Below, in pieces: positions 13,053 through 38,906 of a DNA stretch of 59,473 nucleotides; the first letter of the stretch is position 1; each line of letters opens with the position of its first letter. The notes under the pieces are model-generated. The model did no database searches and was not told the DNA's origin. It was given only the letters and a program-made list of their open reading frames with translations. Source of the stretch: an uncultured Enterobacteriaceae bacterium (GTDB taxonomy: Bacteria > Pseudomonadota > Gammaproteobacteria > Eutrophobiales > Eutrophobiaceae); contig CAZDXS010000157.1 in assembly GCA_964509455.1 (NCBI GenBank), forward strand, positions 1 through 59,473, given 5' to 3'. A program made the position numbers and the translations under genes.

Positions 13053-13061
13053 TGGTATACT
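13053..13061 (+). promoter_or_regulatory. Putative extended -10 promoter for the membrane protein-TIR pair
   Basis: TG-G-TATACT about 26 nt before ATG 13087. Confidence 0.45.
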
Positions 13062-13086
13062 CGACTCAAATTTGGAAACCTTGACG

Positions 13087-13473: not shown

Positions 13474-13494
13474 CCGGACCGAGAGGTGGCAAAA

Positions 13495-13938: not shown

Positions 13939-14084
13939 TCATTGGTAGTTCTCATGGGCATGAACGAAGCGTCCCTGCTGGTGGATTTGCGGCCCGACCG
14001 CTCGGCGCTCGTGCGAGGCACCGCTCGCCGTCCCGAGTTTTTGTCTGTGCAGATAAAATACCCGGCACGAATACCGGAGAACCC

Positions 14085-16357: not shown

Positions 16358-16358
16358 G

Positions 16359-17078: not shown

Positions 17079-17092
17079 GGATTGGTACTGAC

Positions 17093-17341
17093 ATGACTGC
17101 CCCTGTTTCTGATGCAAGGATGAACTACCCCGCCATCAACTATTCGGAATTTTCTGAATTCGCAGGAGCGCGTCCGCCAAGCGCCTGGATGTCCTATCTG
17201 GCGCGAGTCCAATGGGCGGTAAGCCCAGGTGAAAGCTACCATATATTGTGGAATAGCCAGGATCCAATACAGGGACTTGATCTGACATACCGTATCTGGT
17301 ACCATTCGTTGGTAGTGAATTGTCGTACATTAACTGGTTAG
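17093..17341 (+). CDS. Small hypothetical protein (82 aa)
   Basis: Fills the gap between DUF4145 and patatin on the same strand with short spacing; no motif recognised. Confidence 0.35.
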   Translation: MTAPVSDARMNYPAINYSEFSEFAGARPPSAWMSYLARVQWAVSPGESYHILWNSQDPIQGLDLTYRIWYHSLVVNCRTLTG

Positions 17342-17359
17342 CCCGGGAGGTTGCCCGCG

Positions 17360-18286: not shown

Positions 18287-18288
18287 TC

Positions 18289-19182
18289 ATGGCAATTTCT
18301 GAACAACAGCTGGAAACCTGGTCCCACCAAGGGTCAGTGGCGCAGTCCAGCAACACCTACAATTCAATCAAGGCGGTTCTCGAAGCTGGAGAGGCGCCTT
18401 ATGCCCACAGGCACTTCGAGGTTTACCTGCAGGGTTCATACGGCAACCACACCAACGTGTATGCTGAGAGCGACATAGACATTGTTATTTGTCTTATGGG
18501 CGTTTGGTACCGTGATATATCGAATCTGTCTCCGGAAGAACAGGCCGTATACAATGCTGACCACTGGCCGGCGCAGTATGGGTTTCATCATTTCAAAAAT
18601 GACGTTTTGATCTGGCTCAGAGAAAATTTCGGGGCCGGTGTTTGCCAGGGGAAGAAAGCGATTTTCATTCCCGGAAACGGTGGCCGGCGGGAGGCGGATG
18701 TGCTTGCCTGCGTTGAACACCGTAGATACGTCTCGTACCGTCCCAATGGAATTCAATACTACACCGGGATTTGCTTCTGGGCTACTGACGGCCGAGTGTT
18801 TATCAACTTTCCCAAACAGCACAAGGAAAACTGTAAGGGCAAACACCAGAACACGCAGGAGCAATTCAAGCCGAGTGTTCGCATCTTGAAGAACATGCGC
18901 AAAGCCATGGCAGATGAGGGCTATCTGCCGGATGGCGTCGCGCCCTCCTACTTTCTCGAGGGGATGTTGTACAATGTTCCTGATCAATATTTCGGCGTAC
19001 AGTACCAGCCGACCATTGAGAATTGCCTGCGGTGGTTGGAGCAGTGTGATTCGGAAAAACTGGTCTGCGCGAATTGTTTGCACTGGCTGATTAGAGACAG
19101 CCAAGTTGAATGTTGGAACTTGGGGGACTTTCAACTTTTTCTGGACTCCGCCCGTAGATACTGGGATAATGGCGGCCGCTAA
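18289..19182 (+). CDS. cdnE: cGAS/DncV-like nucleotidyltransferase, CdnE type
   Basis: QLETWSHQG, YLQGSYGNHTNVYAESDIDIV, ADVLAC, INFPKQH, FKPSVRILKN, PSYFLEGMLYNVP. Confidence 0.9.
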   Translation: MAISEQQLETWSHQGSVAQSSNTYNSIKAVLEAGEAPYAHRHFEVYLQGSYGNHTNVYAESDIDIVICLMGVWYRDISNLSPEEQAVYNADHWPAQYGFHHFKNDVLIWLRENFGAGVCQGKKAIFIPGNGGRREADVLACVEHRRYVSYRPNGIQYYTGICFWATDGRVFINFPKQHKENCKGKHQNTQEQFKPSVRILKNMRKAMADEGYLPDGVAPSYFLEGMLYNVPDQYFGVQYQPTIENCLRWLEQCDSEKLVCANCLHWLIRDSQVECWNLGDFQLFLDSARRYWDNGGR

Positions 19183-19232
19183 CAGTGCGGCCGCTTGTGA
19201 ACCGCGTCCGCCGCCATGCTGGGTAACCGACT

Positions 19233-19451
19233 ATGAAATCTGCCACGACCAAGAAGAGACAGCGCCTCAGTCAGGAGGAAATTGAGCAGACCTTTCGCGA
19301 TCTGGGTCTCGATGACCCGGAGGTGCGCCGCCGCTTCCAGCAACTCTCAGAATTTGAGGGCTGGTCCAGCGGCTGGAAAAGGCGGGAATATTACGACCGC
19401 TTCGCCATCAACAGAAGAAATTTCGTGGGGAGAAATCCAGGAGACAAGTAA
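19233..19451 (+). CDS. Small hypothetical protein (72 aa) coupled to the S49 peptidase
   Basis: TAATG stop/start overlap with the next gene. Confidence 0.55.
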   Translation: MKSATTKKRQRLSQEEIEQTFRDLGLDDPEVRRRFQQLSEFEGWSSGWKRREYYDRFAINRRNFVGRNPGDK

Positions 19452-20446
19452 TGCCAAGTTGGAATGAACTGCTAAATGAAATTCAGAATGCCGAAGGCCC
19501 ATACGATGCAATCCTCCGTAGGTATTTAGCCAAGCTTCATAAGGTAACCGGCCGCAACGTGATCGTTTATAGCTCGGGTTGGCTTCAAAAGGGGATGATG
19601 CCGGGGGTGGAGATCAATGATGATGACAAGAATGGTTTCATGGCCGCCATTCATAAAATGGACAGGGACAAGGGGCTGGACCTTATCCTGCATACGCCGG
19701 GTGGAGAGGTGGCGGCGGTCGAATCCATTGTCAACTACTTGCGGGCAATGTTCCGAACGGACATGCGGGCGATTATTCCACAATTGGCGATGTCCGGCGG
19801 CACGGTGATTGCTTGTGCCTGCAAGGAAATCATCATGGGGAAGCACTCCAGCCTGGGGCCGATTGACCCTCAGTTAAGGGGCATTCCGGCTCATGGCGTG
19901 ATTGAGGAATTTGAGCGCGCCAAAAAGGAGGTTAAAGCAAACCCCAGCACCATTCCGGTATGGCAAGCCATAATCAACAAATATCACCCCACCCTGATTG
20001 GAGAATGTGAGAAAGCAATCGCCTGGTCCACGGAGATGACCGAGGAATGGTTGCGCACGGGGATGTTCAAGGGAGAAAGCAATGTTGGCAAGAAGATTCA
20101 GGAAATACTTGATCAGCTGGGCGATCATGCCCTGACGAAGTCCCATGAACGACACCTGGCTTTTGATCGTTGTGTAGATATGGGCCTCAAGGTGAGCGCC
20201 CTGGAGGATGACGATGATCTCCAGGAGGCGGTGTTGTCGTTGCACCATGCGTGCATGCTCGCCTTTACTTACACCCCCGCTTTCAAAATTATTGAAAACC
20301 ACGATGGGGTGGCGTTCATTAAGAAGTTTACGCCAGCGCCGTCACTGCTAACCCGGGAGATGTCGGCCACATCCCAGGACCAGCCGCCGCCCATGCCGGA
20401 TGCCAGCGGAGCGCCGGCAAAAGAATCCGCAGGCCGCCAGGGTTAG
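19451..20446 (+). CDS. SDH_sah / S49 (ClpP-crotonase fold) serine peptidase
   Basis: LDLILHTPGG, PQLAMSGGTVIA, SSLGPIDPQ. Confidence 0.85.
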   Translation: MPSWNELLNEIQNAEGPYDAILRRYLAKLHKVTGRNVIVYSSGWLQKGMMPGVEINDDDKNGFMAAIHKMDRDKGLDLILHTPGGEVAAVESIVNYLRAMFRTDMRAIIPQLAMSGGTVIACACKEIIMGKHSSLGPIDPQLRGIPAHGVIEEFERAKKEVKANPSTIPVWQAIINKYHPTLIGECEKAIAWSTEMTEEWLRTGMFKGESNVGKKIQEILDQLGDHALTKSHERHLAFDRCVDMGLKVSALEDDDDLQEAVLSLHHACMLAFTYTPAFKIIENHDGVAFIKKFTPAPSLLTREMSATSQDQPPPMPDASGAPAKESAGRQG

Positions 20447-20779
20447 CAGGGCGCCAAAGACCTTTGAAGCACGGGAGTTTGCCAACGGCGCACCGGCGGC
20501 CAACCAGGCGCCGGCGTTGCGGCTCGCGGCGTTCTATCACTGGGCGCGGGGGACGGAAATCTTGGCCCGTTGCCTGTTGCGGGGAGGGCAGGCAACCCCG
20601 TTCAACTCGCTGGACAAGCATTTCGAAGCCGGCGTCAAGGCGGCGACTGCCGCCGGCGATGCCCGGCACGAAGTCATCCTGCGCTGGTTCTGCGCCGCGG
20701 CGCACATCATGGTCGCCGATTCATCCCGGCGGGCGCCGGGCGCCGTCAACTTGAACAGGGACGCGGCGCCGCCAACCCC

Positions 20780-23700
20780 ATGAGCTACCTGGCGGAAAGC
20801 GACGTAGAAAACACGGCGCTTGAATGGTTTGCGGGGCTTGGCTACGCCGTGTTGCACGGGCCGAACATCGCTCCAGACGGGGCGGCACAAGAGCGGGTCA
20901 GTTATGACCAGCCGCTGTTGGAAGGCCGCCTGCGCGCCGCCCTGGAGCGCCTCAATCCGCACTTGCCGCCCGCCGCGTTGGAGGAGGCGTTGCGCCGTTT
21001 GCAACAATCCGAAACGCCCTCCCTGGTCGAAGAAAACCGCCGCCTGCACGGCTTCCTGGTCGAGGGCGTTCCAGTGGAGACCCGGCGCAAGGACGGCAGC
21101 CTCGGCGGCGATGCGGTGCGTTTGCTGGACTACGAACGGGCGGACGCCAATGACTGGCTGGCGGTCAACCAATATACGATGATTGAAAACGGCAACAACC
21201 GCCGCCTCGACGTCGTGGTGTTCGTCAACGGCATGCCCCTGGCGGTCATCGAGCTCAAGAATCCCGGCGATGAACACGCCACGCTGGAAAGCGCTTTCAA
21301 CCAGTTGCGCACCTACCGGGACCAGGCGCCGTCGCTGTTTCGCACCAATGCCGCGCTGGTCATCTCGGACGGGGTAACAGCGCGCATCGGTTCGCTCACC
21401 GCGCCCCGCGAACGCTTCATGCCCTGGCGCACGGTGGCGGGAGAGGAGCCGGTCCCGGGCGCCGCGCCGGAGCTGGAAACGCTGGTGAGCGGCGTGTTCG
21501 AGAAGAGCCGCTTCCTGGCGTTGGTGCGGGGGTTCACGGTGTTTGCCGACAAGGATTCCGGCCCTGCCAGGATCCTGGCGGGCTATCACCAGTTCTTTGC
21601 CGTGCGCCGGGCGGTGGAAAGCACCGTGCGGGCGTCCGCCCCCGACGGCGACCGGCGCGTCGGCGTCATCTGGCATACCCAGGGCTCCGGCAAAAGCCTG
21701 CTCATGGTGTTCTACGCGGGGCAGGTCATCCGTTGCCCCGCCATGGAGAACCCCACCATCGTGGTGCTTACCGACCGCAACGACCTGGACAGCCAGCTGT
21801 TTGCGACGTTCTCCGCCTGCCGCGACCTGTTGCGCCAGACGCCGCATCAGGCGCAGGACCGGGAAGACCTGCGGCAGCGCCTGTCCCGTCCCTCCGGCGG
21901 CGTGATTTTCACCACCATTCAGAAGTTTGCGCCCGCCGCCGACGCCGCGGATTACCCCGCCATGACCGACCGCCGCAACGTGGTCGTGATTGCCGACGAG
22001 GCGCACCGCAGCCAGTACGGATTCAGGGCGAACGTGGACCACCGAACGGGGCGGGTCTCTTACGGCTTCGCCGGCTACCTGCGCGAGGCCCTGCCCGGGG
22101 CCTCGTTCATCGGTTTCACCGGCACGCCCATCGAGCATGACGATGCGAACACGCCCGCCGTCTTTGGCGACTACCTGGACGTGTACGACATCAACCGCGC
22201 GGTGGAGGACGAGATTACTGTCCCCATCTACTACGAGAGCCGTCTCGTCCGCATCGACCTGAGCGAGACCGAGATGCCGCGTCTTGACGAGGACATCGCC
22301 CGGGTCATGGAAGGAGACGTGGAGGTTGCCGGCGCGGGCGACCATCCCGAGGCCGCCGCCTCCCAGGGCGTTGAGTACGAGCCGCCTCCTTACCAGGAGG
22401 ACGGCGCCGGCCAGGCTGAGTTGGCGGAGGAGGAGCAGGAAAGATTGACGCGCAAGTGGACGCGGGTCGAGGCCGTGGTGGGCGCCGAGAAGCGCCTCGC
22501 CATGATTGCGGAAGACCTGGTTCAGCACTTCGAGGACCGGTTGGCGGGCATGGACGGCAAGGCCATGGTCGTGTGCATGAGCCGCCGCATCTGCGTCGCC
22601 CTGTATGAGCAGATTACCAAGTTGCGCCCCGGCTGGCACAGCGATGACGACAACGCCGGGGAGATCAAGGTGGTGATGACCGGTGCGCCGTCCGACCCGG
22701 CGGAGTGGCAAGCGCACGTCGGCGGCAAGGGCCGCCGGGAATTGCTGGCGCGGCGCATTCGGGACCATGAAGACCCGCTGCGGCTGGCGCTGGTCCGGGA
22801 CATGTGGTTGACCGGCTTTGACGCGCCCTGCGTGCACACGATGTATGTTGACAAGTACATGGGCGGGCACAACCTCATGCAAGCCATTGCCCGCGTGAAC
22901 CGGGTCCATCAAGACAAGCCGGGCGGGCTGATCGTGGACTACATCGGCATTGCCCAGAAGCTTAAATCCGCGCTGGGGGAGTATTCCCACGCGGACCGGC
23001 AACATGCGGGCATAGATGAGGCGGAAGCCGTTCGGGTGTTGCAAGAGAAGTACGAAACCGTGTGCGCCATGTTCCACGGGTTTGATTACCAGGCGGCCTT
23101 GTCCGGCTCGCCGCAGGAGCGCCTGGCGACCCTGGCGGAAGCGATGGAGTGGATCCTGGCCATGCAACGGCGCGACACGGCGGCGGCGGAGTCCGCCGCG
23201 GACAAGAAGCGGGCGCGGCGCCGGTTCGATGATGCGGTGCTGGCCCTTTCCAAGGCTTTCGCCTTGGCGGCCGCTAGCGACCTGGCGCGGCAAATCCGGG
23301 ACGAAGTCGGGTTCTTCCAGGCCGTGCGCGCGGCCCTTGCCAAGACCCGGATGATGGCGGACGCGGCCACCGCCGAGCAGGAGTTTGCGATTCAGCAACT
23401 GGTCAGCCGCGCCGTCATCTCCACCGACATTGTTGACATTCTCAATGCGGATGGACTGAAAACGCCGAATGTCTCCATTCTTTCCGACGAGTTCTTGGCG
23501 GAGGTGCGCGACATGGAGAAAAAGAACCTGGCCCTGGCGGTGTTGCACAAGCTGCTCAACGACGCCATTCGCTCCCGCAGCCAGGAAAACGTGGCGCAAT
23601 CGCAGGCTTTTTCCGAGCGGCTGAGAGAGTCCGTTGCCCGTTACTACCTGAATGCCGCCACGGCGGCGGAGGTGATCCAGGAGTTGATCAACTTGGCCAA

Positions 23701-24025
23701 GGATATTCGCGCCGCCCACCAGCGCGGCGAGGAAGAGGGCCTCAGCCAGGAGGAAATCGCCTTTTATGACGCCCTGGCGCAGAATGAAAGCGCAGTGGAG
23801 GTGATGGGCAACGAGCAGCTTTGCGTCATTGCCCAAGAGTTGCTGAACAGCCTGAAAGCCAACGTGCCCGTCGACTGGCAACACCGGGAAGCCGCCCGCG
23901 CCGAAATGCGGGTGCGGGTGAAGCGCATCTTGAAAAAGCACGGCTATCCGCCGGACCTGCAAGATGCCGCGGTGCAGACGGTGTTGCAACAGGCCGAGGC
24001 GTTGGCCGCGCGCTGGGCCGCTTGA
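20780..24025 (+). CDS. hsdR: Type I restriction enzyme R subunit
   Basis: [18 protein letters not shown] nuclease motif; [39 protein letters not shown]; ATG at 20780. Confidence 0.96.
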
Positions 24026-28011: not shown

Positions 28012-29049
28012 ATGACCGACGACAACCACGCCAACGGCGAGGTCCTGCTCTACGTCACCAAGGATGGGCGGGCCCGCGTGGAATGCCGCTTTCAGGACGA
28101 GACGATTTGGTTGTCGCAGGTCCTGATGGCGGAGTTGTTTGACCGGGATGTGCGCACCATCAATGGGCATTTGCAGAATCTGTTCGAGGAGGAGGAATTG
28201 TCTCCTCGGGCAACCATCCGGAAATTCCAGATAGTTCGCCAGGAAGGGGGCCGCCGGGTCGCCCGCACCATTGAGCATTACAACCTGGAGGCCGTTCTGG
28301 CGGTGGGCTTTCGGGTGCGCTCCCCTCGCGGGACCCAGTTCCGGCGCTGGGCCAATGAACAACTTCGGGAATACCTGCATAAGGGCTTCGTGTTGGATGA
28401 CGAACGGCTCAAGAACCCCGCCGTTCCCGGCGCATCCCCGATTCCTGACTATTTCGACGAGCTGCTCGAGCGCATCCGCGACATTCGCGCCAGCGAGCGG
28501 CGGATGTACCTGCGCGTGCGGGAAATTTTCGCACTGGCCGCCGATTATGATCCGGTGGACGCTGAAACCGCGCGGTTCTTTCGTTTCATCCAGAACAAAC
28601 TGCACTTTGCCGCTACCGGCCGAACCGCCGTCGAGATAATTGCCGAGCGCGCCGATGCGTCCCAGGCAAACATGGGGCTCGCCACTTGGAAAGGAGAGGT
28701 CGTGTGCAAGGGCGACATCACCATCGCCAAAAACTACCTGAACGAAAATGAAATCAGCGAGTTGAACCGCATTGTCGTCATGTGGCTGGATTTTGCCGAA
28801 GACCAAGCCCGGCGCCGCAAACAAGTGTTTCTTGCCCAGTGGCAGGAAAAACTGGACGACTTTCTTCGCTTCAACGAGCGGGACGTCCTGCCCGATGCCG
28901 GCAGGGTCAAGAAGCAGGACTCCGACGAAAAAGCGAACGCTGAGTATGCCGTCTATGCCGAGCGCCGCCGGCAGGCGTTGGAAAAAACGGGAGCGCAGGA
29001 GAGCGTCAAGCAACTGGAGGACCTGGCGCGCCGCGCGTCAAAAAAATGA
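28012..29049 (+). CDS. RhuM-family (virulence RhuM) DNA-binding protein
   Basis: DETIWLSQ, YNLEAVLAVGFRVRS, GFVLDDERLK, IRDIRASERR, AKNYL; GAGGAGG before ATG 28012. Confidence 0.92.
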   Translation: MTDDNHANGEVLLYVTKDGRARVECRFQDETIWLSQVLMAELFDRDVRTINGHLQNLFEEEELSPRATIRKFQIVRQEGGRRVARTIEHYNLEAVLAVGFRVRSPRGTQFRRWANEQLREYLHKGFVLDDERLKNPAVPGASPIPDYFDELLERIRDIRASERRMYLRVREIFALAADYDPVDAETARFFRFIQNKLHFAATGRTAVEIIAERADASQANMGLATWKGEVVCKGDITIAKNYLNENEISELNRIVVMWLDFAEDQARRRKQVFLAQWQEKLDDFLRFNERDVLPDAGRVKKQDSDEKANAEYAVYAERRRQALEKTGAQESVKQLEDLARRASKK

Positions 29050-29075
29050 GCCGCGAAAGCCCGCCCTTAGGTCGC

Positions 29076-29184
29076 GGGCAACTCAGGAATTTCCTGAGTT
29101 CACCTGCCGGGCGCCCGACGCTGGATTTAAGCAAGCGCCGGCCCTAGTTGCGGGCAACTATTAGGAAATTCCTAATAGTTGCCC
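29076..29184. repeat. Two related perfect palindromes (21 bp at 29080-29100; 33 bp at 29152-29184) between convergent genes
   Basis: AACTCAGGAA-T-TTCCTGAGTT and GGGCAACTATTAGGAA-A-TTCCTAATAGTTGCCC. Confidence 0.9.
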
Positions 29185-29233: not shown

Positions 29234-30055
29234 CTAAATCGGCAATTGCTCCAGCCACGGGATGAAGTCGGGGTCGGGCTTCTCCTCGACGTGATGATTG
29301 TGCCAAAGCAGGGAGTTCCGTACGGCGGCGCGGCCGCTGTGGTTGCCCAGCCACTGCGGATAGGACGGCGGCGGCGCATCATGGTATGCCGACAGCAACG
29401 CGATGCTGTTGCGCTTCAGGTAGCCGCGCTTGCTGTCGGGCCCCGGCGCATCGTCAATGCCGACCACCGCGAAAGGCAACTTGCCGATGTACTCGGAGAC
29501 CAGGCGCTCCAGCGGTAACTCCCGCTCTTCCAGAACGGCGCGGTCCATGCCCAGCGCCCTGGCGGCGCTTCCCGGGTCTGATTTAACCCCCCAGGATTCT
29601 ACGCATTCGTGGTCGCCGCGCCCCATCAGTGCATCCCCCACCAGCAAGCGAAAAATGGAGCCTCGATGGTTGCCGCCGCCGGACCTGCGGCTCCCCCGAT
29701 GTTGCGACAGGCGGCCCCACAACGTGGACTTTGCGTCGGCTTTCAAGGCATGCGTTCCCACGCGCACAACGCGGGAGCAGTCCGGCTCCCAGAAGAAATA
29801 CACGCCGCGCCGCGGCAACCCCATTCCGCCGTCGGCATCCGCCAGGTAGCGATAACCGTACTGGGCCTCGACCAAGCGCTCCAGCCAGCGGTAGAACCGC
29901 TCCCGCCATTGGCGGAGTTGCTCCCGCTCAGTCGTCACGAGCGCGGGTGGTGCGACTGGTTTGCAACCAACCAAGCGTTTTAGCCATTGGCGGAACCGCT
30001 TCCACCATTGGCAACGTTGCTTCCGCCCAGTTGTCACTGGCGCGGGCGGCACCAC
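29234..30055 (-). CDS. GIY-YIG-like protein, paralogue 2 (E-to-K at the predicted metal ligand)
   Basis: GVYFFW...RVVRVG...LWGRLSQH; YLKRNSIALL; closely similar to the adjacent paralogue. Confidence 0.6.
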   Translation of the reverse strand: MVPPAPVTTGRKQRCQWWKRFRQWLKRLVGCKPVAPPALVTTEREQLRQWRERFYRWLERLVEAQYGYRYLADADGGMGLPRRGVYFFWEPDCSRVVRVGTHALKADAKSTLWGRLSQHRGSRRSGGGNHRGSIFRLLVGDALMGRGDHECVESWGVKSDPGSAARALGMDRAVLEERELPLERLVSEYIGKLPFAVVGIDDAPGPDSKRGYLKRNSIALLSAYHDAPPPSYPQWLGNHSGRAAVRNSLLWHNHHVEEKPDPDFIPWLEQLPI

Positions 30056-30109
30056 CTTGCTACGAGGTCTGACAACGGTTTTCGTCCTCGCACCCGAACT
30101 TCTTGTCGC

Positions 30110-30805
30110 TCATTGCTTGTCGCATTTAATCGGCAACCGCTCCAGCCACGGGATGAAGTCGGGGTCGGGAGTTTCATCGACGTGATTCTGGTTCCACAAC
30201 AACGAGCGCCGCACCGCACCGCGGTTGCTGTGGTTGCCCAGCCACTGCGGGTAGGACGGCGGCGGCTTATCGTGATATGCCGACAGCAACGCGATGCTGT
30301 TGCGCTCCAGGTAGCCGCGGTCGCTGTCCGGCCCCGGTGCATCATCAATACAGGCCACCGCGAAAGGCAACTTGCCAATGTACTCGGAGACCAGGCGTTC
30401 CAGCGGCAACTCCCCCTCAGTTAGCTCGGAGCGGTCCATGCCCAGCGCCCTGGCGGCGCTTCCCGGGCTTGATTTGTACCCCCAGGATTTCACCGGTTTG
30501 TGATCGCCGCACTTCATCAGCGCTTTCCCCACCAGCAACCGAAAGATGGAGCCGCGATGATTGCCGCCGCCGGATCCGAGGGTCCCCCGATGTTGCGACA
30601 GTCGCCCCCACAACGTGGACTTCGAGCCGGCTTTCAAGGCATGCGTTCCCACGCGCACGACGCGGGAACGGTCCGACTCCCAGAAGAAATACACGCCGCG
30701 CCGCGGCAACCCCGTCCCGCTGCCGGCATCCGCCAGGTAGCGATAGCCGCCCTGATTTGCTACCAGCAATTCCAGCCACTGGTAGAACCGCTCCCGCTCA
30801 GTCAT
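30110..30805 (-). CDS. GIY-YIG-like protein, paralogue 1
   Basis: GVYFFW...RVVRVG...LWGRLSQH; YLERNSIALL; LWNQNH; ATG overlaps the DUF6884 stop (ATGACTGA). Confidence 0.65.
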   Translation of the reverse strand: MTERERFYQWLELLVANQGGYRYLADAGSGTGLPRRGVYFFWESDRSRVVRVGTHALKAGSKSTLWGRLSQHRGTLGSGGGNHRGSIFRLLVGKALMKCGDHKPVKSWGYKSSPGSAARALGMDRSELTEGELPLERLVSEYIGKLPFAVACIDDAPGPDSDRGYLERNSIALLSAYHDKPPPSYPQWLGNHSNRGAVRRSLLWNQNHVDETPDPDFIPWLERLPIKCDKQ

Positions 30806-31244
30806 CCCGGGCGCGGGAGGCACAACAGTTTTGCAACCAGCTCAGTTGCTCCCCGATTCTCATCCCCTCCATCGGCACGTCCACCTCGTATCCGGCATCC
30901 TCCAACGGCGCCGCCAGGTTTTCGCGGTACCTGGCGCCCGCCAGGAAGACGAACCGGCAGGGATCCAGTTTCAGCAAGTCCTCAAGCACCGGGGCCGCCC
31001 AGTTCCGCCGCTCCCGTGCACCCATATTGTTCAGGGTTTTCTCGTACGGCTCGATCTCCTTTTCCGGGTCAACCAGCCCGTATTTCGCCGAGAGTATGAA
31101 CCAGGGGCATCCCTTGGCCTCCACGTAGCGCCGCGCCTTGAGGAACCAGTCGGATTGATACAAGTCCTTGGCTGCGCACGGGTAGCCCTGTTTTACCGAG
31201 ACGCAGGAAACCAAGTAAATAGTGTCGTCGTTATGTGCGTTCAT
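30798..31244 (-). CDS. DUF6884-like protein
   Basis: IYLVSCVSVK...AKDLYQSDWFLKARRY...WFILSAKYGL...IEPYEKTL...LAGARY...PMEGMRIGEQL; family name from memory. Confidence 0.7.
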   Translation of the reverse strand: MNAHNDDTIYLVSCVSVKQGYPCAAKDLYQSDWFLKARRYVEAKGCPWFILSAKYGLVDPEKEIEPYEKTLNNMGARERRNWAAPVLEDLLKLDPCRFVFLAGARYRENLAAPLEDAGYEVDVPMEGMRIGEQLSWLQNCCASRARDD

Positions 31245-31302
31245 CGTTCTTATTCTGTGATGGAAACGCAGGATGATACCACAGCAGGCAAATCATGGGG
31301 CG
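31238..31302. repeat. 65-bp direct repeat, copy 1 (extended -10, 5'UTR and ATG of the DUF6884-like gene)
   Basis: 64/65 identical to 38842-38906; contains TG-G-TATCAT on the minus strand. Confidence 0.95.
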
Positions 31303-31457: not shown

Positions 31458-34241
31458 TCACGTTTTGTCGCCGCCCGTGGTGAGGCGCTTATCCAGTTCC
31501 ACAAATTGCTGGAGCGTGCTAAAACCGCCGCGGTCGAAGTCGACCTGGTTCACTCGCAGGTAGCGCCAGGGGATGCCGATTTCCTTGCTCACCCGTTCGC
31601 ACCACTGCGCCATGGCGTTGTCCTTTGCTTCCGTTCCCTCCCAGACACGCCCTTTCGTCTCGATGATCCAGTTCACTTCGCCGGCATCGGTTTTTTGCAC
31701 CACCACCCAGTCCGGATAGTAGAAGCCAATGGCGCCGCTCGCTTTCAGGTAGTCCACTCGAAACTGGCTGCTGGAATCTCCTTGCTCGGTGGTGCCCAGC
31801 GCGGCGAAGCGCACCACGTCTTTTGCGATGTCCAGAAACTGGGCGAAGCGGCGCTCGAAGCCGTTGTAGGTCGCCACGTAGTTGAAGACCGTCTTCTTTG
31901 CTCGAGGCGGCGGCAGGTCGCGCCGCCAGAGGAACTTCTTGGTCTCGGAAAGATGGTGGTCCTCCTTGTCGAACTCAATGACGCGCCGCACGACCGTCAA
32001 CTCCGCGATTTTGCGCGCCAGGTACTTGGCGATGCCTTCCCGCAAAGGCAGGCGGTTGAGGTGCGAGCGCACCGCTTTAGCATTAATGTCGACTTCCCTG
32101 CCGAAACAACGCGTCGTCACGTAGTCCCGCACGATGGGGTATAGCTCTGCGAAGCGGTTAGGCAGTTTAGCCTCGCCGATGACCTTGTTGGTAATGCTTG
32201 CCAGCAACTCTTGGGCAAGGAGCAACTCGCCCTCGATGGGTTCTACGTGGATCTCGGTCTCCGTGGGGGCGAATTTTATCTTGAGCGTAACGCGGAATGG
32301 CTCGTCCAGCTCCTTCTGATCGTAGATCGCCTCCAACTCGTCGACGCGAAGTTCCGCCAGCTTGCGAATGTCGTACGCCAGGCTTGGCTTGGTGATTGGA
32401 ATGGCGATGTCGTACTTTATCTTCTCCTGCACAGGCTCGATGATGACCCCCACCGGTGGGTCGGTTTTGGTGACGGCTACGCCCACGCCCTCCGCCTCCA
32501 GTTGCTCGCGCAGAACCTTCAGCAGGTTGCGTGTGCCCAGAACTTCCAGGGTTTGCGTCCGGTCCTGGCTTACCCCAGCCATGAGGCGCAACCCCCTGCC
32601 GATGACCTGCTCCGGCAGGATCTCGGCCTTGGCGGTGAACGGGCGCAGACCCAGCACCACGGAGACGTTCCGCACGTCCCAGCCTTCGCGCAACATCATC
32701 ACGCTGACGATTGCCTTGATGTTGCTCTCTGCCGCGTCGATGTCGCGCGCCGCCGCCCGGGCCTTGTCCAGGTCTTTCTTGGTGATCTCGCCCGCCGTGT
32801 CCGTGTGAATCACCAGCACTTCATCTTGCTTGAAGCCGAACTCTTTGGTTTGCCGCAGGTAGTTGCCGATGGCGTCCGCATAGACGTTTTTCTCGGTCAT
32901 GATGAACAGCACCGGGCGCGTGTTGAGTTTTTTGTAGGTCTCATGATGCACTTTCCAGCGTAGCACCGCGGCCTGCAACCAGTAACCGTACTTCTCGACG
33001 ACATTTTCCTTGGTGATGCCGTCGGGATCTTCCTGGGGTTGCTTAGGATCGTCCTCCTTGGTGACGATGAGCGGCGCCTTGACGATGCGGTCTTCCACCG
33101 CTTGGGCAAGAGGGTAGTCGCATACCGTCCAGGGGAAGTACATCCCGTTCTGATCTTTCGGCGTGGCGGAAAAGTCCAACCACATTGCGAGCCCCTGCGG
33201 CAACGCGTCGTGAATGGCGAGCAGGGATCGACTCCATTGCAGATCCTCGTCGTGAACATGGTGGGCCTCGTCATTCAGCACCACCAGATCGTTTAGCGAC
33301 TTCATCCTTTCCAGCATCGAGCGTTGACCTGAAGATGCCAGGTCTTTCGCCGGCGGGCCCAGTAGCGCATCGATGGGGTTGGCGGGCATCCACTCCTTGT
33401 CCCGCGACTCGTAAAGTTGCTGGATGTTGGTGAGAAAGAGGTTGCCCGAGGCGGCGGGATCCGCGGCATCGCCGCGCAGGATTACGTTCTGGCTGAAAGC
33501 CCCTTTCCACTCCGGCGGGACCAGCGGTAGCCTGTGAAAGATGCTGTTGTCCCTGAAGTCCTTTTCCAGCCGCTGGTAAACAATTACGTTGGGCGCGACA
33601 ATCAAGAAATTGGTCGAGAGCCCCGAGTCCGCCACTTGTTGTTTGTGAAGCCGGGCCCAGACAATGGCCATGGCCATGACCCAGGTCTTGCCCGAGCCGG
33701 TCGCCATCTTGAATGCGAAGCGGCGCAGATCCTCCGGCGGGAGATCCTGCACTCCATCATTATTCAGCTCGGGAACGTAGCGGCGCAATTGCCGTCGGCC
33801 ATCCATGGTGGTTTGGAACTCGATGTCGTCGGCTAGCAGGTCTTTTTTGAACTTGCTTGCATACTTCTTGATCAAGTCCTGTACATCGCGTTGCCCGGCG
33901 ATCTCCACCCGCCACACCAGCGTCTCGATGGCTTCGCGCTGGCAGAAGTGATAGCGGAACGTGTCATCAAACCCCGGGACTTCATGGTCCTCCTCGAACC
34001 AGTACCCGAAAAGGCGCCGCGTCACGGCGGAGGCGCCGGCGTAGCCCCCCTCCCGCCACGCATCCACAGCAGTACGGATCTTCGGCACCAGCAACCGCTG
34101 GCTGTCGCGCCGGCCGGCTTCCACCCGCCAGCCGGTAGCGGCCGCCTCGTCTTTCACCAAGTGGGAAGTGGGCTTTTCCCATGGGCAACGGCCCGGAATT
34201 TCCGGCAGGTCTTTGTCGTAGGCGATGACGGATTTTGCCAT
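31458..34241 (-). CDS. res: Type III restriction enzyme Res subunit
   Basis: FKMATGSGKT, NDEAHH, FSATP, MLREGWD, EQVIGRGLR; C-terminal YPDW...IETKG nuclease. Confidence 0.92.
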   Translation of the reverse strand: MAKSVIAYDKDLPEIPGRCPWEKPTSHLVKDEAAATGWRVEAGRRDSQRLLVPKIRTAVDAWREGGYAGASAVTRRLFGYWFEEDHEVPGFDDTFRYHFCQREAIETLVWRVEIAGQRDVQDLIKKYASKFKKDLLADDIEFQTTMDGRRQLRRYVPELNNDGVQDLPPEDLRRFAFKMATGSGKTWVMAMAIVWARLHKQQVADSGLSTNFLIVAPNVIVYQRLEKDFRDNSIFHRLPLVPPEWKGAFSQNVILRGDAADPAASGNLFLTNIQQLYESRDKEWMPANPIDALLGPPAKDLASSGQRSMLERMKSLNDLVVLNDEAHHVHDEDLQWSRSLLAIHDALPQGLAMWLDFSATPKDQNGMYFPWTVCDYPLAQAVEDRIVKAPLIVTKEDDPKQPQEDPDGITKENVVEKYGYWLQAAVLRWKVHHETYKKLNTRPVLFIMTEKNVYADAIGNYLRQTKEFGFKQDEVLVIHTDTAGEITKKDLDKARAAARDIDAAESNIKAIVSVMMLREGWDVRNVSVVLGLRPFTAKAEILPEQVIGRGLRLMAGVSQDRTQTLEVLGTRNLLKVLREQLEAEGVGVAVTKTDPPVGVIIEPVQEKIKYDIAIPITKPSLAYDIRKLAELRVDELEAIYDQKELDEPFRVTLKIKFAPTETEIHVEPIEGELLLAQELLASITNKVIGEAKLPNRFAELYPIVRDYVTTRCFGREVDINAKAVRSHLNRLPLREGIAKYLARKIAELTVVRRVIEFDKEDHHLSETKKFLWRRDLPPPRAKKTVFNYVATYNGFERRFAQFLDIAKDVVRFAALGTTEQGDSSSQFRVDYLKASGAIGFYYPDWVVVQKTDAGEVNWIIETKGRVWEGTEAKDNAMAQWCERVSKEIGIPWRYLRVNQVDFDRGGFSTLQQFVELDKRLTTGGDKT

Positions 34242-34243
34242 GA

Positions 34244-36107
34244 CTATTTCACCTCCACGGCGAACACCTGCGAGGTGTCATTGCCGAAAATGTCAATCAC
34301 CTTGACGAGGATGCGGTACTTGCCCGGCTTCTCGTAGGCATGCGGGTCGGAGACCAGCGGCAGTTGGCGCTCCTTGCGCGTGCGGTACGCCACCCAGCCT
34401 TGCATGAAAGTATCGTTGCGGAAGTCCCAGTCCACCGCCCAGTAGTCGATGTAGTCCGACGACTCCTGCACCTTGTCGCGCACGTCCTCCGGAATCAGCT
34501 CGGTGTTGGGGATGACGAAATTTTTCAGCGCCACCTGCGCGGTAAGTTTCTCCGGTTGCTTGATCTTGGCTTCCAGATACGCCAGCTGGAAAAAGTGTAC
34601 GTCGCCCTGTGCCACGGCCTGCTCCTCTATCGCCTCTCGAGGAATCTGCAAGAGCAGAAGATTCACGCCTCGGTTTCCTGCCTCTGACACCATCAGGTTT
34701 CCGTTAAGGCCCATCTCCCACTCCCAGCCAAGTACGTGCAACTCGTCCTGCTTGAGCTTCACGCATTCATCCACCGCGGCATCGATATCGTTTATGGTTA
34801 CTGGCGCTTCTACCGCGCCGATGCGGACTAGGGCCTTGCCTTTCCTGCCGTGCAGGTGCGTCATGTCTGCCAGCGGCTGGGCGCCGTAAAGATTGAGAAT
34901 GAAAGCCAGGTACTCGTAGAGCGCCTGCTCCGTGAGCGGCCTGCCTTGCGCTTCGCCGAAAGTCACATCCTGCCAGTGTTGGTGCTCGTACTTGCCGAGA
35001 TTGAGGATCTCGAAAGGTTTGCAGTTCTCGATGCCGAGCAAGCGCTTGCGGGTGACATGAGTGCCCCAGCGCCCCAGGTCGCAACCAATCCAACGACGGC
35101 CCAGCTTCTCGGCGACAGCGAGGGTGGTGCCGGAGCCGCAGAAAAAGTCGGCGACTAGGTCGCCCTCGTTGGAAGATGCCTTGATGATGCGTTCCAACAA
35201 GGCCTCGGGCTTTTGGGTGGGGTAGCCAACTCGCTCGCTACTCATCGGTTGATTCTGCATAGAATTTATATCTGCCCAGACCGTAGAAACCGCTTTGCCT
35301 TCGGTTAAATAGCGGCGGCGGCCAGCAAGAACATAATACTGTCTCCCATTCTCGTCCACTTGATCGTGTTTATCGACCCACTCTTGCGAATGCGGAACAA
35401 GTTGTTTGTTGAATACTGGACTACCTTTGTGGTAGTAAAACAAAACATCGTGATTCCTAATCCACTTATCTGCCCTGGCTTTATAGCCACTAACTGCTTC
35501 GCCCATCCGCCAAATTATCTCATTTCTAAAATTATCTTTCCCAAAAACTTCATCCATCAACAACCGAACGAAGCTATTCACACGCCAATCGCAATGTACG
35601 TAAATACTGCCGTTATCAGCGAGCAAGTCGCGCATCAAGACGAGGCGCTCCCAGATCATCGCGACATAACTGTCCACCCCCTTACTCCAAGTGTCGCGAT
35701 ACGCCTTTTCCTCGATAACAGATTGCTCCTTTTCGACCTCGAGGCTATCTTCACCAATCTGCGCCTTAAAGGAAAAATCCGCCCCTGTCGCAAACGGCGG
35801 GTCAATGTAGATGAGGTCAATTTTACCCGCCAATCTCTCCAGCAAAGACCCCATCACCAGCAAGTTGTCGCCCCATATCAGCTTGTTTTGCCAGCCATTT
35901 TCGGGGTTGCCCCCCCCAGGTTTTAAATAACGTGTCTTGTGGGCCGAGTCGTCCTTTATGAGCCTCGCGCGTGGCGCGGGTCTCGTTCACGGCCTCGATG
36001 ACCTGGAACGGCAGGTTGACGCGCGGCACCTCCTTGAGTGCGCCATTCTCGTCGTACTTGCCCGGCCACACCAGTTCGGTTTTTTCTACGGCGTTGATTG
36101 TTGTCAT
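34244..36107 (-). CDS. mod: Type III Mod (beta-class N6-adenine MTase), copy A; frameshifted at a G8 tract (G7 or G10 restores the frame, ~620 aa)
   Basis: ELVWPGK N-terminus in one frame, NKLIWGDN-IDPPF-TRD-DFFCGSGTT in another; junction is the homopolymer at 35910-35917. Confidence 0.9.
35910..35917 (-). repeat. Poly-G(8) tract in mod copy A
   Basis: C8 on the plus strand at the frameshift point. Confidence 0.9.
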
Positions 36108-36270
36108 GGTCTCTGATGTCTTGTATGGGTTCGCAATTGCTTGGGATTGTAACACAGGTTCGCCTCTCCCTGTTAGTGGGAATACAACTCCCCGCCAGGG
36201 TCTATGGGAAGCCAAGGGCGCATCGCCCAAGCCGCTCCCGGCGCGATGGCGATGACGGACCCCGGCATGG

Positions 36271-38141
36271 CTACTTCACCTCCACGTCGAAGACCTGCGA
36301 GGTGTCGTTGCCGAAAATGTCAATCACCTTGACGAGGATGCGGTACTTGCCCGGCTTCTCGTAGGCATGCAGGTCGGAGACCAGCGGCAGATTGCGCTCC
36401 TTGCGCGTGCGGTATGTCACCCAGCCCTGCATGAAAGTGTCGTTGCGGAAGTCCCAGTCCACCGCCCAGTAGTCGATGTAGTCCGACGACTTCTGCACCT
36501 TGTCGCGCACGCTCTCCGGAAGCAGCCCGGTGTCAGGGATGACGAACTCTTTCAGCGCCACTTGTACAGTGAGTTCCTTCGGGCGCTTGATCTCGGCTTC
36601 CAGATACGCCAGCTCGAAGAAACGCACGTCGCCCTTGGCCACGGCCTGCTCCTCCATCACCTCGCGAGGGATCCGCAAGAGTTGGAGCTTTACGCCTTTT
36701 TGCTTCGCCAGCCCCACCACCAGTTTGTTGAGTCCCATCTCCCATTCCCAGCCGAGCACGTGCAACTCGCCCTGCTTGATCTTCACGCACTCTTCTACCG
36801 CGGCATCGATCTCGTCTATCGTTACCGGGGCATCTACGGCGCCGATGTGAACCATCGCCTTGCCTTGCTTGCCGTGCAGGTGCGCCATGCCCGCCAGCGG
36901 TTGGGCGCCGTAAAGCTTCAGAATGAAAGCCAAGTACTCGTAGAGGGCCCGCTCGGTGAGCGGCTTGTCCTGCGCCTCACCGAAAGTCACGCCTTGCCAG
37001 TACTGGCGTTCGTACTTTCCGAGGTTTAGCACTTCGAATGGATTGCAGTTATCGATGCCGAGCAAGCGCTTGCGGCTGACGTGGATGCCCCAGCGTCCCA
37101 GGTCGCAACCGATCCAGCAGCGGCCCAACTTTTCGGCAACGGCAAGGGTGGTACCGGAACCGCAGAAAAAGTCAGCGACCAGATCTCCCTCATTAGACGA
37201 TGTCCGAATGATTCTCCTGAGGATGCTTTCGTTTTTCTGGGTATCGTATCCTGTCTTCTCCTGCGAGAAGCTTTTGATCTGAATCGAATCAAGTGAATCT
37301 TCCCCCCTGAGCTCGAACTCGAACGAGTTAGCATTCCATACGTCCTCTATGGGATAGCCCTTGCCTTCTGTCTCACCGCCCCTTCGTTCGTAGCCAGAGG
37401 GGTACGGAACGTACTCTTTATTAAACGTGAAATCATCAGGCGCCTTAACATAGAAGAGAATCGTGTCGTGATTCCGAATCCAGTTCTTTGCGGCGCTCTT
37501 GTAGCCTGAAATCCAGCCGATTCGCCAGACGACCTCCCGCTGGAATGAGTCGATGCCAAAAATTTCGTCCATCAAGGACTTAACGTAGTGGCCGACCGTG
37601 GCATCCAGATGAACATAAATTGAACCTCGCGGGCTCAAGAGAGAACGCATAAGGGTGAGGCGATCCCGGATCATCTCCAGATAGCCGGCAAGGCCGCTCC
37701 CCCAGGTGTCGTGATACGCTTTTTCCTCGATAACAGATCGCTCTTTCTTTAACTCGGGGCCCTTTTCGCCAACCTGCGTTTTGAATGAAAAATCCGCCCC
37801 CGTCGCAAACGGCGGGTCAATGTAAATGAGGTCAATTTTCCCCGCCAACTTCTCTAGCAACGACCCCATCACCAGCAGATTGTCGCCCCAGATTAGCTTG
37901 TTGCGCCAACTCTCCGCCTCGACGCTGTCGCTTTCGGGCGCACCCCCCCCCCCCAGATTTTGTAGAACGTGTCTTGTGGGCCGAGCCGTCCCTTATTCGC
38001 CTCCCGCGTGGCGCGGCTCTCGTTCACGGTCTCGATGACCTGGAACGGCAGGCTGACGCACGGCGTCTCCTTGAGACGGCCGTCCTCGTCGTACTTGCCC
38101 GGCCATACCAGTTCGGTCTTGGTTATGTCGATTTTCGCCAT
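36271..38141 (-). CDS. mod: Type III Mod, copy B with a different TRD; frameshifted at a G12 tract (G13 or G10 restores the frame, ~623 aa)
   Basis: MAKIDITKTELVWPGK N-terminus out of frame with NKLIWGDN-IDPPF-TRD-DFFCGSGTT; junction is the homopolymer at 37943-37954. Confidence 0.9.
37943..37954 (-). repeat. Poly-G(12) tract in mod copy B
   Basis: C12 on the plus strand at the position homologous to the G8 tract of copy A. Confidence 0.92.
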
Positions 38142-38155: not shown

Positions 38156-38848
38156 TTACAACAGCCCGGCTTTGCGGAAACTGAAAGTCTCTTGTTGCGA
38201 CACAATCAGGTGGTCCAGGATGCGCAGGTCGACGGTTTCCGCGGCTAGGACGACGGCGCGCGTGGTCACCTTGTCCTGCTCGCTGGGCTGGACGTTGCCG
38301 TTCGGATGATTGTGGGCAAGTACCAGGGCCGCCGCCCGGCGCCGTAGCGCTGCCTCGACCACGCGGCGCGGATACACGGCGGCGCGATTGACCGTGCCTT
38401 CCTGCAAGGTCTCCACGCCGTCGCGGAGCAGTCGGCAACCGGAGTCCAGGTACGCCACGGCAAACACCTCGTGCTGGAGCATGCCGATTTTGGCGCGCCA
38501 GAAATCACTGAGCCGGCCGGGGTCGAGCAACACCTCCCCTTCCTCGGACGCCTGTTGCAGGTAGAGCGTTGCCGCGGCGCGAACGGCCTGCAGGTTGACG
38601 GCGGCCACTTCGCCCACGCCCTTGACCGACTGGAGTTCCGCCAGGGGCGCATCGAGGATGCCGCGCAGGCTGCCGAAACGCGCCAGCAGGGCCTTGGCGG
38701 CCGGCTTGGTGTCTTTTCGGGGGATGGCCAGGGTCAGGAGCATCTCGATGACCTCGTACTCCGCAAATCCCGCCAATCCTCCCTTGCGGAAGCGCTCGCG
38801 CAGTCGCCGGCGGTGCTGTACGTAGTGCGGCTGTTCCTGTCCGTTCAT
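38156..38848 (-). CDS. radC: RadC-family JAB/MPN domain protein
   Basis: HRRRLRERF, LLTLAIPRKDTKP, GTVNRAAVYPRRV, HNHPNG...PSEQD, ILDHLIV. Confidence 0.93.
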   Translation of the reverse strand: MNGQEQPHYVQHRRRLRERFRKGGLAGFAEYEVIEMLLTLAIPRKDTKPAAKALLARFGSLRGILDAPLAELQSVKGVGEVAAVNLQAVRAAATLYLQQASEEGEVLLDPGRLSDFWRAKIGMLQHEVFAVAYLDSGCRLLRDGVETLQEGTVNRAAVYPRRVVEAALRRRAAALVLAHNHPNGNVQPSEQDKVTTRAVVLAAETVDLRILDHLIVSQQETFSFRKAGLL

Positions 38849-38906
38849 CGTTTTTATTCTGTGATGGAAACGCAGGATGATACCACAGCAGGCAAATCAT
38901 GGGGCG
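38842..38906. repeat. 65-bp direct repeat, copy 2 (extended -10, 5'UTR and ATG of radC)
   Basis: 64/65 identical to 31238-31302. Confidence 0.95.

What the first reader, a model, noticed from the sequence alone, without database searches (positions are those of the whole stretch)
29234..31244. Candidate new defence operon: DUF6884-like gene + active and apparently inactive GIY-YIG-like paralogues
Seen: a three-gene operon behind its own promoter copy. The two nucleases are close paralogues, but the distal one has YLKRNS instead of YLERNS (GAG to AAG at the Glu matching the GIY-YIG metal-ligand helix) and LWHNH instead of LWNQNH. It sits beside four methyltransferase systems. Inference: a modification-dependent or abortive nuclease with the DUF6884-like protein as sensor or partner, and the dead paralogue as regulator or heterodimer subunit; alternatively a decaying duplicate.
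Basis: partly seen in the sequence, partly recalled or inferred. Interest (0 to 1): 0.7.

Follow-up and report, generated by a model that had tools for sequence, protein, structure and literature searches.

The report
PDC-M57 cassette with dead nuclease duplicate
The three genes are a copy of an already catalogued but never tested phage-defence candidate (a DNA base-reading protein plus a putative GIY-YIG nuclease), unusual only because the nuclease gene is tandemly duplicated and the second copy has lost two otherwise invariant residues.

Summary
Three co-oriented minus-strand genes lie at 29234-31244 behind a 69-nt promoter and 5'UTR repeat.

- **Gene A (148 aa):** a clear DUF6884 protein with a YaaA-like predicted fold.
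- **B1 and B2:** 79% identical paralogues from an 891-nt tandem duplication.
- **B2:** carries E173K (GAG to AAG) and N211H. Both positions are essentially invariant in about 270 homologues.

The operon is not a new system. A and B match PADLOC PDC-M57A and PDC-M57B (E 1e-41 and 6e-67). PDC-M57 is one of 145 untested "guilt-by-embedding" defence candidates. Pfam calls the B family GIY_YIG_3 (PF26468). The A-B pairing is strongly conserved: adjacent in 67 of 80 genomes, often fused, and reversed in the same genus.

I could not confirm the GIY-YIG fold independently. Motifs and strand/helix order fit, but Foldseek and hhalign gave no significant match.

The B duplication is unique among the roughly 86 loci examined. 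B2 has not drifted neutrally since duplication (pairwise dN/dS 0.39, frame still open). I cannot decide whether it is a retained non-catalytic partner or a recently inactivated copy.

Defence linkage is strong in this window (Gabija, RhuM, type I and III R-M). It is weak around homologues in other genomes.

Verdict: a new member of a known candidate system, of low-to-moderate interest.

The parts
31234..31302 (-). Promoter and 5'UTR repeat that also holds the first codons of gene A (extended -10-like TGGTATCAT). A second copy lies at 38838-38906 in front of RadC.
   Evidence: family D19 (97% identity over 69 nt). Sequence read. The sigma-70 consensus scan found no canonical promoter.
30798..31244 (-). 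Gene A: DUF6884 / PDC-M57A, a YaaA-fold putative DNA base-flipping reader. It has the CVSVK (CxxxK) and LSAKYG (LSAxxG) motifs.
   Evidence: Pfam PF21818, E 1.9e-49. PADLOC PDC-M57A, 1.2e-41, plus weak DpdC hits. AF2 pLDDT 92.5. Foldseek top hit 5CAJ YaaA, E 3.2e-4, prob 1.00. Invariant C14, K18, S52 and G56.
30110..30823 (-). Gene B1: GIY_YIG_3 / PDC-M57B putative nuclease with every family-invariant residue intact. Its likely start is ATG 30805, overlapping A's stop by 8 nt.
   Evidence: PADLOC PDLC04714, 6e-67. PF26468 assigned. AF2 pLDDT 92.1. Conservation. Overlap read.
29939..30109 (-). B1-B2 spacer. It holds two degenerate copies of the junction between A's 3' end and B's 5' end (30000-30068 and 29901-29969, 99-nt period). 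It is open in B2's frame up to GTG 30055.
   Evidence: family D2. Sequence.
29234..29938 (-). Gene B2: tandem paralogue of B1 with E173K (codon at 29414-29416) and N211H (codon at 29300-29302). It has no convincing ribosome-binding site. The segment equivalent to residues 97-120 is acidic, whereas it is basic in B1.
   Evidence: Database gene call P0002, 234 aa.
29040..29184 (-). Region downstream of the operon. It contains two perfect palindromes with a GGAAnTTCC core (29152-29184, 29084-29104). A terminator-like hairpin with a T-run lies on the minus strand at 29048-29062.
   Evidence: inverted repeat I1. terminator scan. Sequence.

Best explanation
This is a horizontally acquired copy of the two-gene cassette that PADLOC lists as the untested defence candidate PDC-M57. 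It sits in a roughly 35-kb defence island.

Gene A is a small YaaA/DpdC-superfamily DNA-binding protein. It is inferred to flip out and read a base: either a modified base in foreign DNA or a lesion.

Gene B1 is translationally coupled to A and is the effector, a divergent GIY-YIG-type DNA nuclease (Pfam GIY_YIG_3). It is inferred to be recruited or licensed by A to nick or cut the DNA that A has marked.

B2 arose by an 891-bp tandem duplication found only in this lineage. It stayed under purifying selection for much of the time since. It has lost the putative metal-binding Glu and an invariant Asn, so it is very probably catalytically dead. My odds for B2:
- about 45%: a recently inactivated, redundant copy on its way out;
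- about 35%: a retained non-catalytic partner or regulator of B1;
- the rest: other readings.

Shown here: gene identities, conserved pairing and fusion, the duplication, the loss of invariant residues, and non-neutral evolution.

Inferred: nuclease activity, base reading, a defence role, and any role for B2.
For: Identity
- PADLOC PDC-M57A and M57B hits at 1e-41 and 6e-67.
- DUF6884 at 167.7 bits.
- PF26468 GIY_YIG_3 for B.

A's fold and superfamily
- A folds like YaaA.
- A related YaaA-type protein, DpdC, chemically converts a modified base inside DNA (PMC10164549; DUF328 assignment in PMC5699537).
- Pfam curators predict base flipping for the DUF6884 member YfjM (PMC11701544).

Functional linkage of A and B
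- A lies immediately upstream of B in 67 of 80 genomes.
- At least 7 of those are single fused ORFs, and there are further fusions.
- The same-genus variant has the order B then divergent DUF6884.
- A and B1 overlap by 8 nt.

Nuclease reading of B
- Invariant GVY / RVG / R74-x3-H78 / E173 lie on a strand-strand-helix...strand-helix order.

B2
- 79% identity to B1.
- Only B2 changes E173 and N211, which are E in 264 of 267 and N in 256 of 259 aligned homologues.
- dN/dS is 0.39 and dS 0.33, with Fisher p 1.7e-5 against neutrality.
- The chance of keeping an open frame under neutral drift is 0.03.
- Polarised changes are B1 12 versus B2 11.

Context
- The neighbours are Gabija, RhuM, type III and type I R-M with embedded CBASS, TIR and Fic genes.
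- The cassette is patchy in the genus, present in 6 of 22 genomes.
Against: - No experiment exists for PDC-M57.
- Foldseek of a high-confidence B1 model finds no solved or viral GIY-YIG structure at E below 0.6.
- Profile comparisons with UvrC-type and T5orf172-type GIY-YIG domains are not significant.
- Around homologues in 41 other genomes the neighbours are mostly metabolic. Only about 10 of 125 hit PADLOC models. A DNA-repair role therefore fits as well as defence.
- The A-B-B' layout occurs in none of 80 other loci nor in 6 same-genus genomes, so nothing shows that B2 is selected for.
- The two other Glu-less homologues found are orphans without A, one of them in a visibly decayed locus.
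- The window is a contig from a metagenome-assembled genome. No independent assembly carries the junction.
Confidence: 0.6

Rival explanations
1. B2 is a selected, catalytically dead paralogue that works with B1. It could be the non-cutting half of a heterodimer, turning a double-strand cutter into a nickase or adding substrate control. Alternatively it could be an inhibitor or regulator of B1. The analogy is ERCC1 beside XPF (established knowledge).
For: - The frame is open after dS 0.33, where the neutral expectation of staying open is 0.03.
- Pairwise dN/dS of 0.39 is below 0.5, so B2 cannot have been neutral throughout.
- Polarised substitution counts are equal for B1 and B2 (12 versus 11). 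This rejects a 'B2 neutral, B1 constrained' split at p 8e-6.
- Only 2 of about 24 invariant residues changed.
- Residues 97-120 carry net charge +4 in B1 and -3 in B2, both at or beyond the family range of -1 to +4.
Against: - The layout is seen only in this genome.
- B2 has no coupled start or clear ribosome-binding site.
- The same statistics fit a copy that was active until recently.
- No structural or interaction evidence could be obtained.
Confidence: 0.3
2. The A-B pair is an accessory DNA-repair module and not an immune system. A recognises a damaged or abnormal nucleotide (abasic site, ribonucleotide, oxidised base). The GIY-YIG enzyme incises next to it, as UvrC's N-terminal domain does in excision repair.
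For: - The DUF6884 protein YfjM was recovered on abasic and ribonucleotide lesions, and YaaA is a peroxide-stress protein (PMC11701544).
- A fusion with a 5'-3' flap exonuclease exists (P0235).
- Neighbours in 41 other genomes are mostly housekeeping or metabolic genes.
- Weaker Foldseek hits of A include the uracil-DNA-glycosylase-fold enzymes SMUG1 and MUG.
Against: - The cassette was catalogued because it is repeatedly embedded inside BREX, DISARM or type I R-M loci, 46 times.
- In this window it sits between Gabija/RhuM and a type III R-M system.
- Its distribution is patchy and clearly horizontal: 6 of 22 genomes in the genus, with a different subtype there.
Confidence: 0.25
3. The tandem B1-B2 arrangement is an assembly artefact of the metagenome-assembled genome. 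Two strain variants of one gene would have been stitched in tandem.
For: The window is a whole 59-kb contig of a 270-contig MAG. No second assembly carries the junction.
Against: - The copies differ by about 15% in DNA, enough for assemblers to keep them apart.
- The junction has a coherent biological structure: a remnant of gene A's 3' end, a further 99-nt repeat, and a preserved frame.
- The same island holds an independent 2-kb tandem duplication of the mod gene.
Confidence: 0.04

Closest known systems
PADLOC phage-defence candidate PDC-M57 (Payne et al., bioRxiv 10.1101/2024.01.29.577857; cassette CAS_00183, FAM_03160>>FAM_00294)
   Same: Both proteins match the PDC-M57A and PDC-M57B models strongly. 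Gene order, strand and tight coupling are the same, and the cassette lies next to R-M systems.
   Different: This copy has a second, tandem B gene lacking two invariant residues, which I saw in none of about 86 other loci. PDC-M57 itself has no experimental support.
DpdC of the Dpd 7-deazaguanine restriction-modification system, and E. coli YaaA (PDB 5CAJ)
   Same: Gene A shares the YaaA-type fold (Foldseek E 3.2e-4). It gives weak hits to the DpdC models (E 1.8e-5). DpdC acts on a base inside duplex DNA.
   Different: A is half their size. It is a DUF6884 protein, not a DUF328 one. It has no associated transglycosylase or preQ0 genes, and it is paired with a nuclease. No enzymatic activity is known for it.
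GIY-YIG nucleases (UvrC N-terminal domain, I-TevI, restriction enzymes Eco29kI and Hpy188I)
   Same: - A GxY motif and an xxG motif lie on two adjacent strands.
- An invariant Arg-x3-His lies on the next helix.
- An invariant Glu lies on the helix after the third strand.
- Pfam names the family GIY_YIG_3.
   Different: - The second Tyr is Arg (RVG).
- A 50-residue helical insertion and extra N- and C-terminal helices are present.
- Many additional invariant residues exist (N88-H89-R90, E138, E142, W210-N211).
- There is no significant Foldseek or profile match to canonical members.
Nuclease heterodimers with a dead paralogue (XPF-ERCC1, Mus81-Eme1; from established knowledge)
   Same: A nuclease sits beside a close paralogue that has lost catalytic residues.
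   Different: The family and the domain of life are unrelated. No evidence here shows that B1 and B2 interact.

Membership tests
PADLOC PDC-M57 | Protein A matches the PDC-M57A model | tested here: met
   PDLC04712, E 1.2e-41, model positions 3-135 of 138
PADLOC PDC-M57 | Protein B matches the PDC-M57B model | tested here: met
   PDLC04714: B1 6e-67, B2 8.1e-67
PADLOC PDC-M57 | A and B adjacent on the same strand, in the order A then B | tested here: met
   A's stop and B1's start overlap by 8 nt. The same order is seen in 67 of 80 other loci.
PADLOC PDC-M57 | Confers anti-phage protection | not testable with these tools
   The 145 PDC systems are stated to be untested. No paper mentions PDC-M57.
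Pfam DUF6884 (PF21818) | HMM score above the gathering threshold | tested here: met
   167.7 bits against a cut-off of 30, covering 1-134 of 135 positions
Pfam DUF6884 (PF21818) | CxxxK and LSAxxG motifs | tested here: met
   C14-VSV-K18 and L51-S-A-KY-G56. Both are invariant in 28 orthologues. Motif definition from PMC11701544.
Pfam DUF6884 (PF21818) | YaaA-like alpha/beta 'cantaloupe' fold | tested here: met
   AF2 pLDDT 92.5. Foldseek top PDB hit 5CAJ YaaA, E 3.2e-4, prob 1.00, TM 0.60.
GIY-YIG superfamily (via Pfam GIY_YIG_3, PF26468) | Match to the PF26468 model | tested here: inconclusive
   PF26468 is the precomputed Pfam hit for the window's own B1 and B2 and for all 120 listed homologues. 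The family name was seen. The model is absent from the local Pfam copy, so my own scan found nothing.
GIY-YIG superfamily (via Pfam GIY_YIG_3, PF26468) | GIY and YIG motifs on a beta-hairpin, a catalytic Arg on helix 1, and a Glu on the helix after strand 3 | tested here: inconclusive
   G43-V-Y45 lies on strand 43-48 and R57-V-G59 on strand 55-60. R74 and H78 lie on helix 71-79. E173 lies on helix 168-180, after strand 153-158. The second Tyr is replaced by Arg. The 3-D proximity of these residues could not be checked because no coordinates were available.
GIY-YIG superfamily (via Pfam GIY_YIG_3, PF26468) | Significant structural similarity to a solved GIY-YIG domain | tested here: not met
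   Foldseek against the PDB: best E 1.5, with no GIY-YIG entry in the top 50. Against BFVD, GIY-YIG-named proteins appear only at E 1.8-3.6, ranks 7, 8, 13 and 38.
GIY-YIG superfamily (via Pfam GIY_YIG_3, PF26468) | Profile-profile similarity to canonical GIY-YIG (PF01541) or T5orf172 (PF10544) sequences | tested here: inconclusive
   hhalign against the UvrC-type alignment gives P 0.0075 and probability 5%, but aligns GVY with GVY and R74/H78 with the Arg helix. Against T5orf172 there is nothing. Both profiles have low diversity.
Modification-dependent (type IV-like) restriction | Cleaves only DNA that carries a specific base modification, with no cognate methyltransferase | not testable with these tools
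   No methyltransferase lies inside the cassette. Substrate preference is unknown.

The most novel reading that the evidence does not exclude
B2 is not junk. It would be a selected pseudo-nuclease that pairs with B1. Its acidic 97-120 patch would face B1's basic one. It would tune cutting by the YaaA-fold reader plus GIY-YIG effector, for example turning cleavage into nicking or keeping B1 off until A finds its target base. This would be the first dead-paralogue regulatory subunit described for a GIY-YIG defence nuclease. It would also offer a natural handle for working out how PDC-M57 operates.
Probability: 0.25. Interest if true: 0.55.

Novelty: new member of a known kind. Interest (0 to 1): 0.3.

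Why it matters
PDC-M57 is widespread: 6,560 B homologues in the word-indexed search, and 1,506 cluster representatives at 50% identity. It is entirely uncharacterised. A YaaA/DpdC-type base reader wired to a nuclease would be a distinct way of recognising foreign or damaged DNA.

This locus adds little to the catalogue. It does supply a natural paired comparison: B1 is intact, and B2 carries E173K and N211H. Together with one other homologue that changes the same two positions, this marks the residues to mutate first.

The locus also documents how quickly this island reshuffles by tandem duplication.

Tried and rejected
**B against sequence libraries**
- Pfam, NCBIfam and PHROG scans of B found no hit, because PF26468 is missing from the local Pfam copy.
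- phmmer and profile searches against PDB sequences gave only a spurious RbcX match.

**B against structures and GIY-YIG profiles**
- Foldseek of the B1 model against the PDB and BFVD gave nothing significant.
- hhalign of the B family against GIY-YIG domains harvested from related genomes, and against T5orf172 domains, was not significant.

**Literature**
- Searches for PDC-M57 and PF26468 found nothing.

**Promoter**
- I looked for the upstream GGTTGCGCC..ATGATTT motif elsewhere in the window as a 'promoter copy'. It was not repeated. The real repeat is the 69-nt block found.

**Checking the duplication**
- An exact-match scan of metagenome contigs for the B1-B2 junction found nothing.

**Toxin-antitoxin reading**
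- I considered a toxin-antitoxin reading, with A neutralising B. I rejected it because A and B are frequently fused into one protein.

**Two acquisitions**
- I considered two independent acquisitions of B. I rejected that because the copies are 79-81% identical to each other but at most 59% identical to anything else.
Full report
**What is there**

The region 29234-31244 holds three co-oriented minus-strand genes.
- **Gene A:** 30798-31244, 148 aa.
- **Gene B1:** ORF 30110-30823. The likely start is ATG at 30805, which overlaps A's stop codon in the string ATGACTGA.
- **Gene B2:** ORF 29234-30055. The public gene call (P0002, 234 aa) starts at GTG 29938.

B1 and B2 are 79% identical over 238 residues (E 8e-133). 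They lie 891 nt apart in register. The duplicated unit includes the last ~40 nt of gene A. A second, more degenerate 99-nt copy of that junction sits in the B1-B2 spacer. The array was therefore built by at least two rounds of unequal recombination.

Upstream of A, 31234-31302 is 97% identical to 38838-38906, which heads a RadC gene. Downstream of B2 there are two perfect palindromes and a hairpin with a T-run on the minus strand.

**What the proteins are**

*Gene A.* It is an unambiguous DUF6884 protein (PF21818, 167.7 bits).
- It has the family's CxxxK and LSAxxG motifs. Both are invariant in 28 orthologues.
- Its AlphaFold2 model has pLDDT 92.5. The best PDB match is E. coli YaaA, 5CAJ (E 3.2e-4, probability 1.00). 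This agrees with the Pfam curators' description of a YaaA-like DNA-binding fold with predicted base flipping (PMC11701544).
- PADLOC also gives weak hits to DpdC. DpdC is a YaaA/DUF328-type protein (PMC5699537). It converts preQ0 to ADG inside DNA (PMC10164549).

*Genes B1 and B2.* They have no hit in the local Pfam, NCBIfam or PHROG libraries, nor to PDB sequences.
- Both match PADLOC PDC-M57B at about 1e-66, and A matches PDC-M57A at 1e-41.
- PDC-M57 is cassette CAS_00183 in the 'guilt-by-embedding' study. It is one of 145 candidates stated to be untested.
- The precomputed Pfam assignment for B1, B2 and all listed homologues is PF26468. Its name is GIY_YIG_3.

**Is B a GIY-YIG nuclease?**

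The B1 model is confident (pLDDT 92.1). Its element order and motifs fit the superfamily:

| Element | Residues | Motif or key residues |
|---|---|---|
| strand | 43-48 | GVYFFW |
| strand | 55-60 | VVRVGT |
| helix | 71-79 | R74, H78 |
| helices | 88-150 | insertion relative to canonical members |
| strand | 153-158 | |
| helix | 168-180 | E173, R174, N175 |

Every residue named in the table except R174 and N175 (about 88% conserved) is essentially invariant across 270 homologues. My independent tests did not reach significance:
- Foldseek against the PDB gave a best E of 1.5 with no GIY-YIG entry.
- Foldseek against BFVD placed GIY-YIG-named phage proteins only at E 1.8-3.6.
- hhalign against UvrC-type domains taken from related genomes gave P 0.0075, probability 5%. 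It did align GVY with GVY and the R74 helix with the catalytic-Arg helix.
- T5orf172 domains gave nothing.

I therefore treat 'GIY-YIG' as supported by curation and by inspection, but not verified here.

**Is the pair real and conserved?**

Yes.
- In 80 loci from other species, A lies immediately upstream of B in 67.
- At least seven of those are single fused ORFs. More fusions appear in the protein searches, including a 5'-3' exonuclease-DUF6884-B protein and a YaaA-like-B protein.
- Six of 22 other genomes of the same genus carry one B gene at about 50% identity. In the one locus read in full, a divergent DUF6884 protein lies downstream of it.

The partnership between a YaaA-fold protein and B thus holds across gene orders and fusions. 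None of these loci has a second full B copy.

**Is it defence?**

In this window, clearly by association. The cassette sits between Gabija (OLD-type nuclease plus UvrD-type helicase), a RhuM gene and a type III R-M system. A type I R-M system nearby has many embedded genes, and two further methyltransferase systems lie in the window.

In 41 other genomes, the two genes on either side are mostly metabolic. Only about 10 of 125 hit PADLOC models. The defence label therefore rests on the original embedding statistic and on this island. A DNA-repair role remains a serious rival, about 25%.

**The second nuclease copy**

B2 alone replaces E173 (GAG to AAG) and N211 (AAC to CAC).
- Among 273 aligned rows, E173 is Glu in 264 and N211 is Asn in 256.
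- The only other sequence changing both positions (P0181, E to K and N to S) is an orphan without A in a decayed locus. An E to V variant (P0191) is also an orphan.

The paired loss suggests that the two residues work together.

B2 is not a long-dead pseudogene:
- Pairwise dN/dS is 0.39 with dS 0.33. This is significantly below 1 (p 1.7e-5).
- It is also below 0.5, which is impossible if one copy had been neutral throughout.
- A neutral copy would keep an open frame with probability about 0.03.
- Changes polarised by the family consensus are symmetric, 12 in B1 and 11 in B2.
- Residues 97-120 have diverged to net charge +4 in B1 and -3 in B2. The family range is -1 to +4.

These facts fit either a retained non-catalytic partner or a copy that was inactivated recently. 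I could not separate the two. The uniqueness of the layout and the lack of a clear start signal tilt me slightly towards the latter.

**Limits**

- The window is a whole contig of a 270-contig metagenome-assembled genome.
- No model coordinates were available, so active-site geometry could not be inspected.

**Verdict**

The 'new system' claim is not: this is PDC-M57, which earlier notes of this scan have met repeatedly, an identification I had reached independently. The only distinctive feature is a lineage-specific, probably catalytically dead nuclease duplicate.

Noticed in passing
window 29084-29104 and 29152-29184: Two perfect palindromes share a GGAAnTTCC core (AACTCAGGAAaTTCCTGAGTT and GGGCAACTATTAGGAAtTTCCTAATAGTTGCCC). 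They lie between the convergent B2 and RhuM genes. They could be protein-binding sites or a bidirectional terminator.
   Followed up: no
window 29493-29564 (B2) versus 30384-30455 (B1), residues 97-120: The same surface segment carries net charge +4 in B1 (four lysines gained) and -3 in B2 (D/E gained). Both values are at or beyond the family range of -1 to +4.
   Followed up: partly
window 29901-30068: A 99-nt tandem repeat of the junction between A's 3' remnant and B's 5' end lies inside the B1-B2 spacer. It stays open in B2's frame. It may be the remnant of a third B copy or a local re-duplication.
   Followed up: partly
L084:1465-2918 (same-genus genome) and L082-L087: Same-genus genomes carry a different subtype of the cassette. 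It has a single B gene, about 50% identical. In L084 it is followed downstream by a 228-aa divergent DUF6884 protein with CAGSK and LSAGWG motifs, so the gene order is reversed. In L082-L087 no DUF6884 gene of the window's type lies within 1.5 kb of B.
   Followed up: partly
proteins P0235, P0186, P0133/P0128, P0162: The B domain occurs in several fusions: a 5'-3' exonuclease plus DUF6884; a YaaA-like domain; DUF7662; and, possibly through a merged gene call, a Mur ligase.
   Followed up: partly
window 8233-24025: The type I R-M genes are spread over 16 kb (hsdM 8233-10062, hsdS 14085-15296, hsdR 20570-24025). About ten genes are embedded between them: Schlafen/AlbA, Fic, ThsB-type TIR, DUF3644, DUF4145, patatin, and an SDH-type protease. 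This is the arrangement the 'guilt-by-embedding' approach relies on.
   Followed up: partly
window 4006-5061 and 47333-50075: Two further R-M-type elements lie in the window. One is a C5-cytosine methyltransferase. The other is an XcyI-like restriction endonuclease next to a weak N4/N6-methyltransferase hit.
   Followed up: no
window 34221-38120: The type III mod region is itself a tandem duplication of about 2,027 nt, at 81-92% identity. This island has therefore undergone several local duplications.
   Followed up: no
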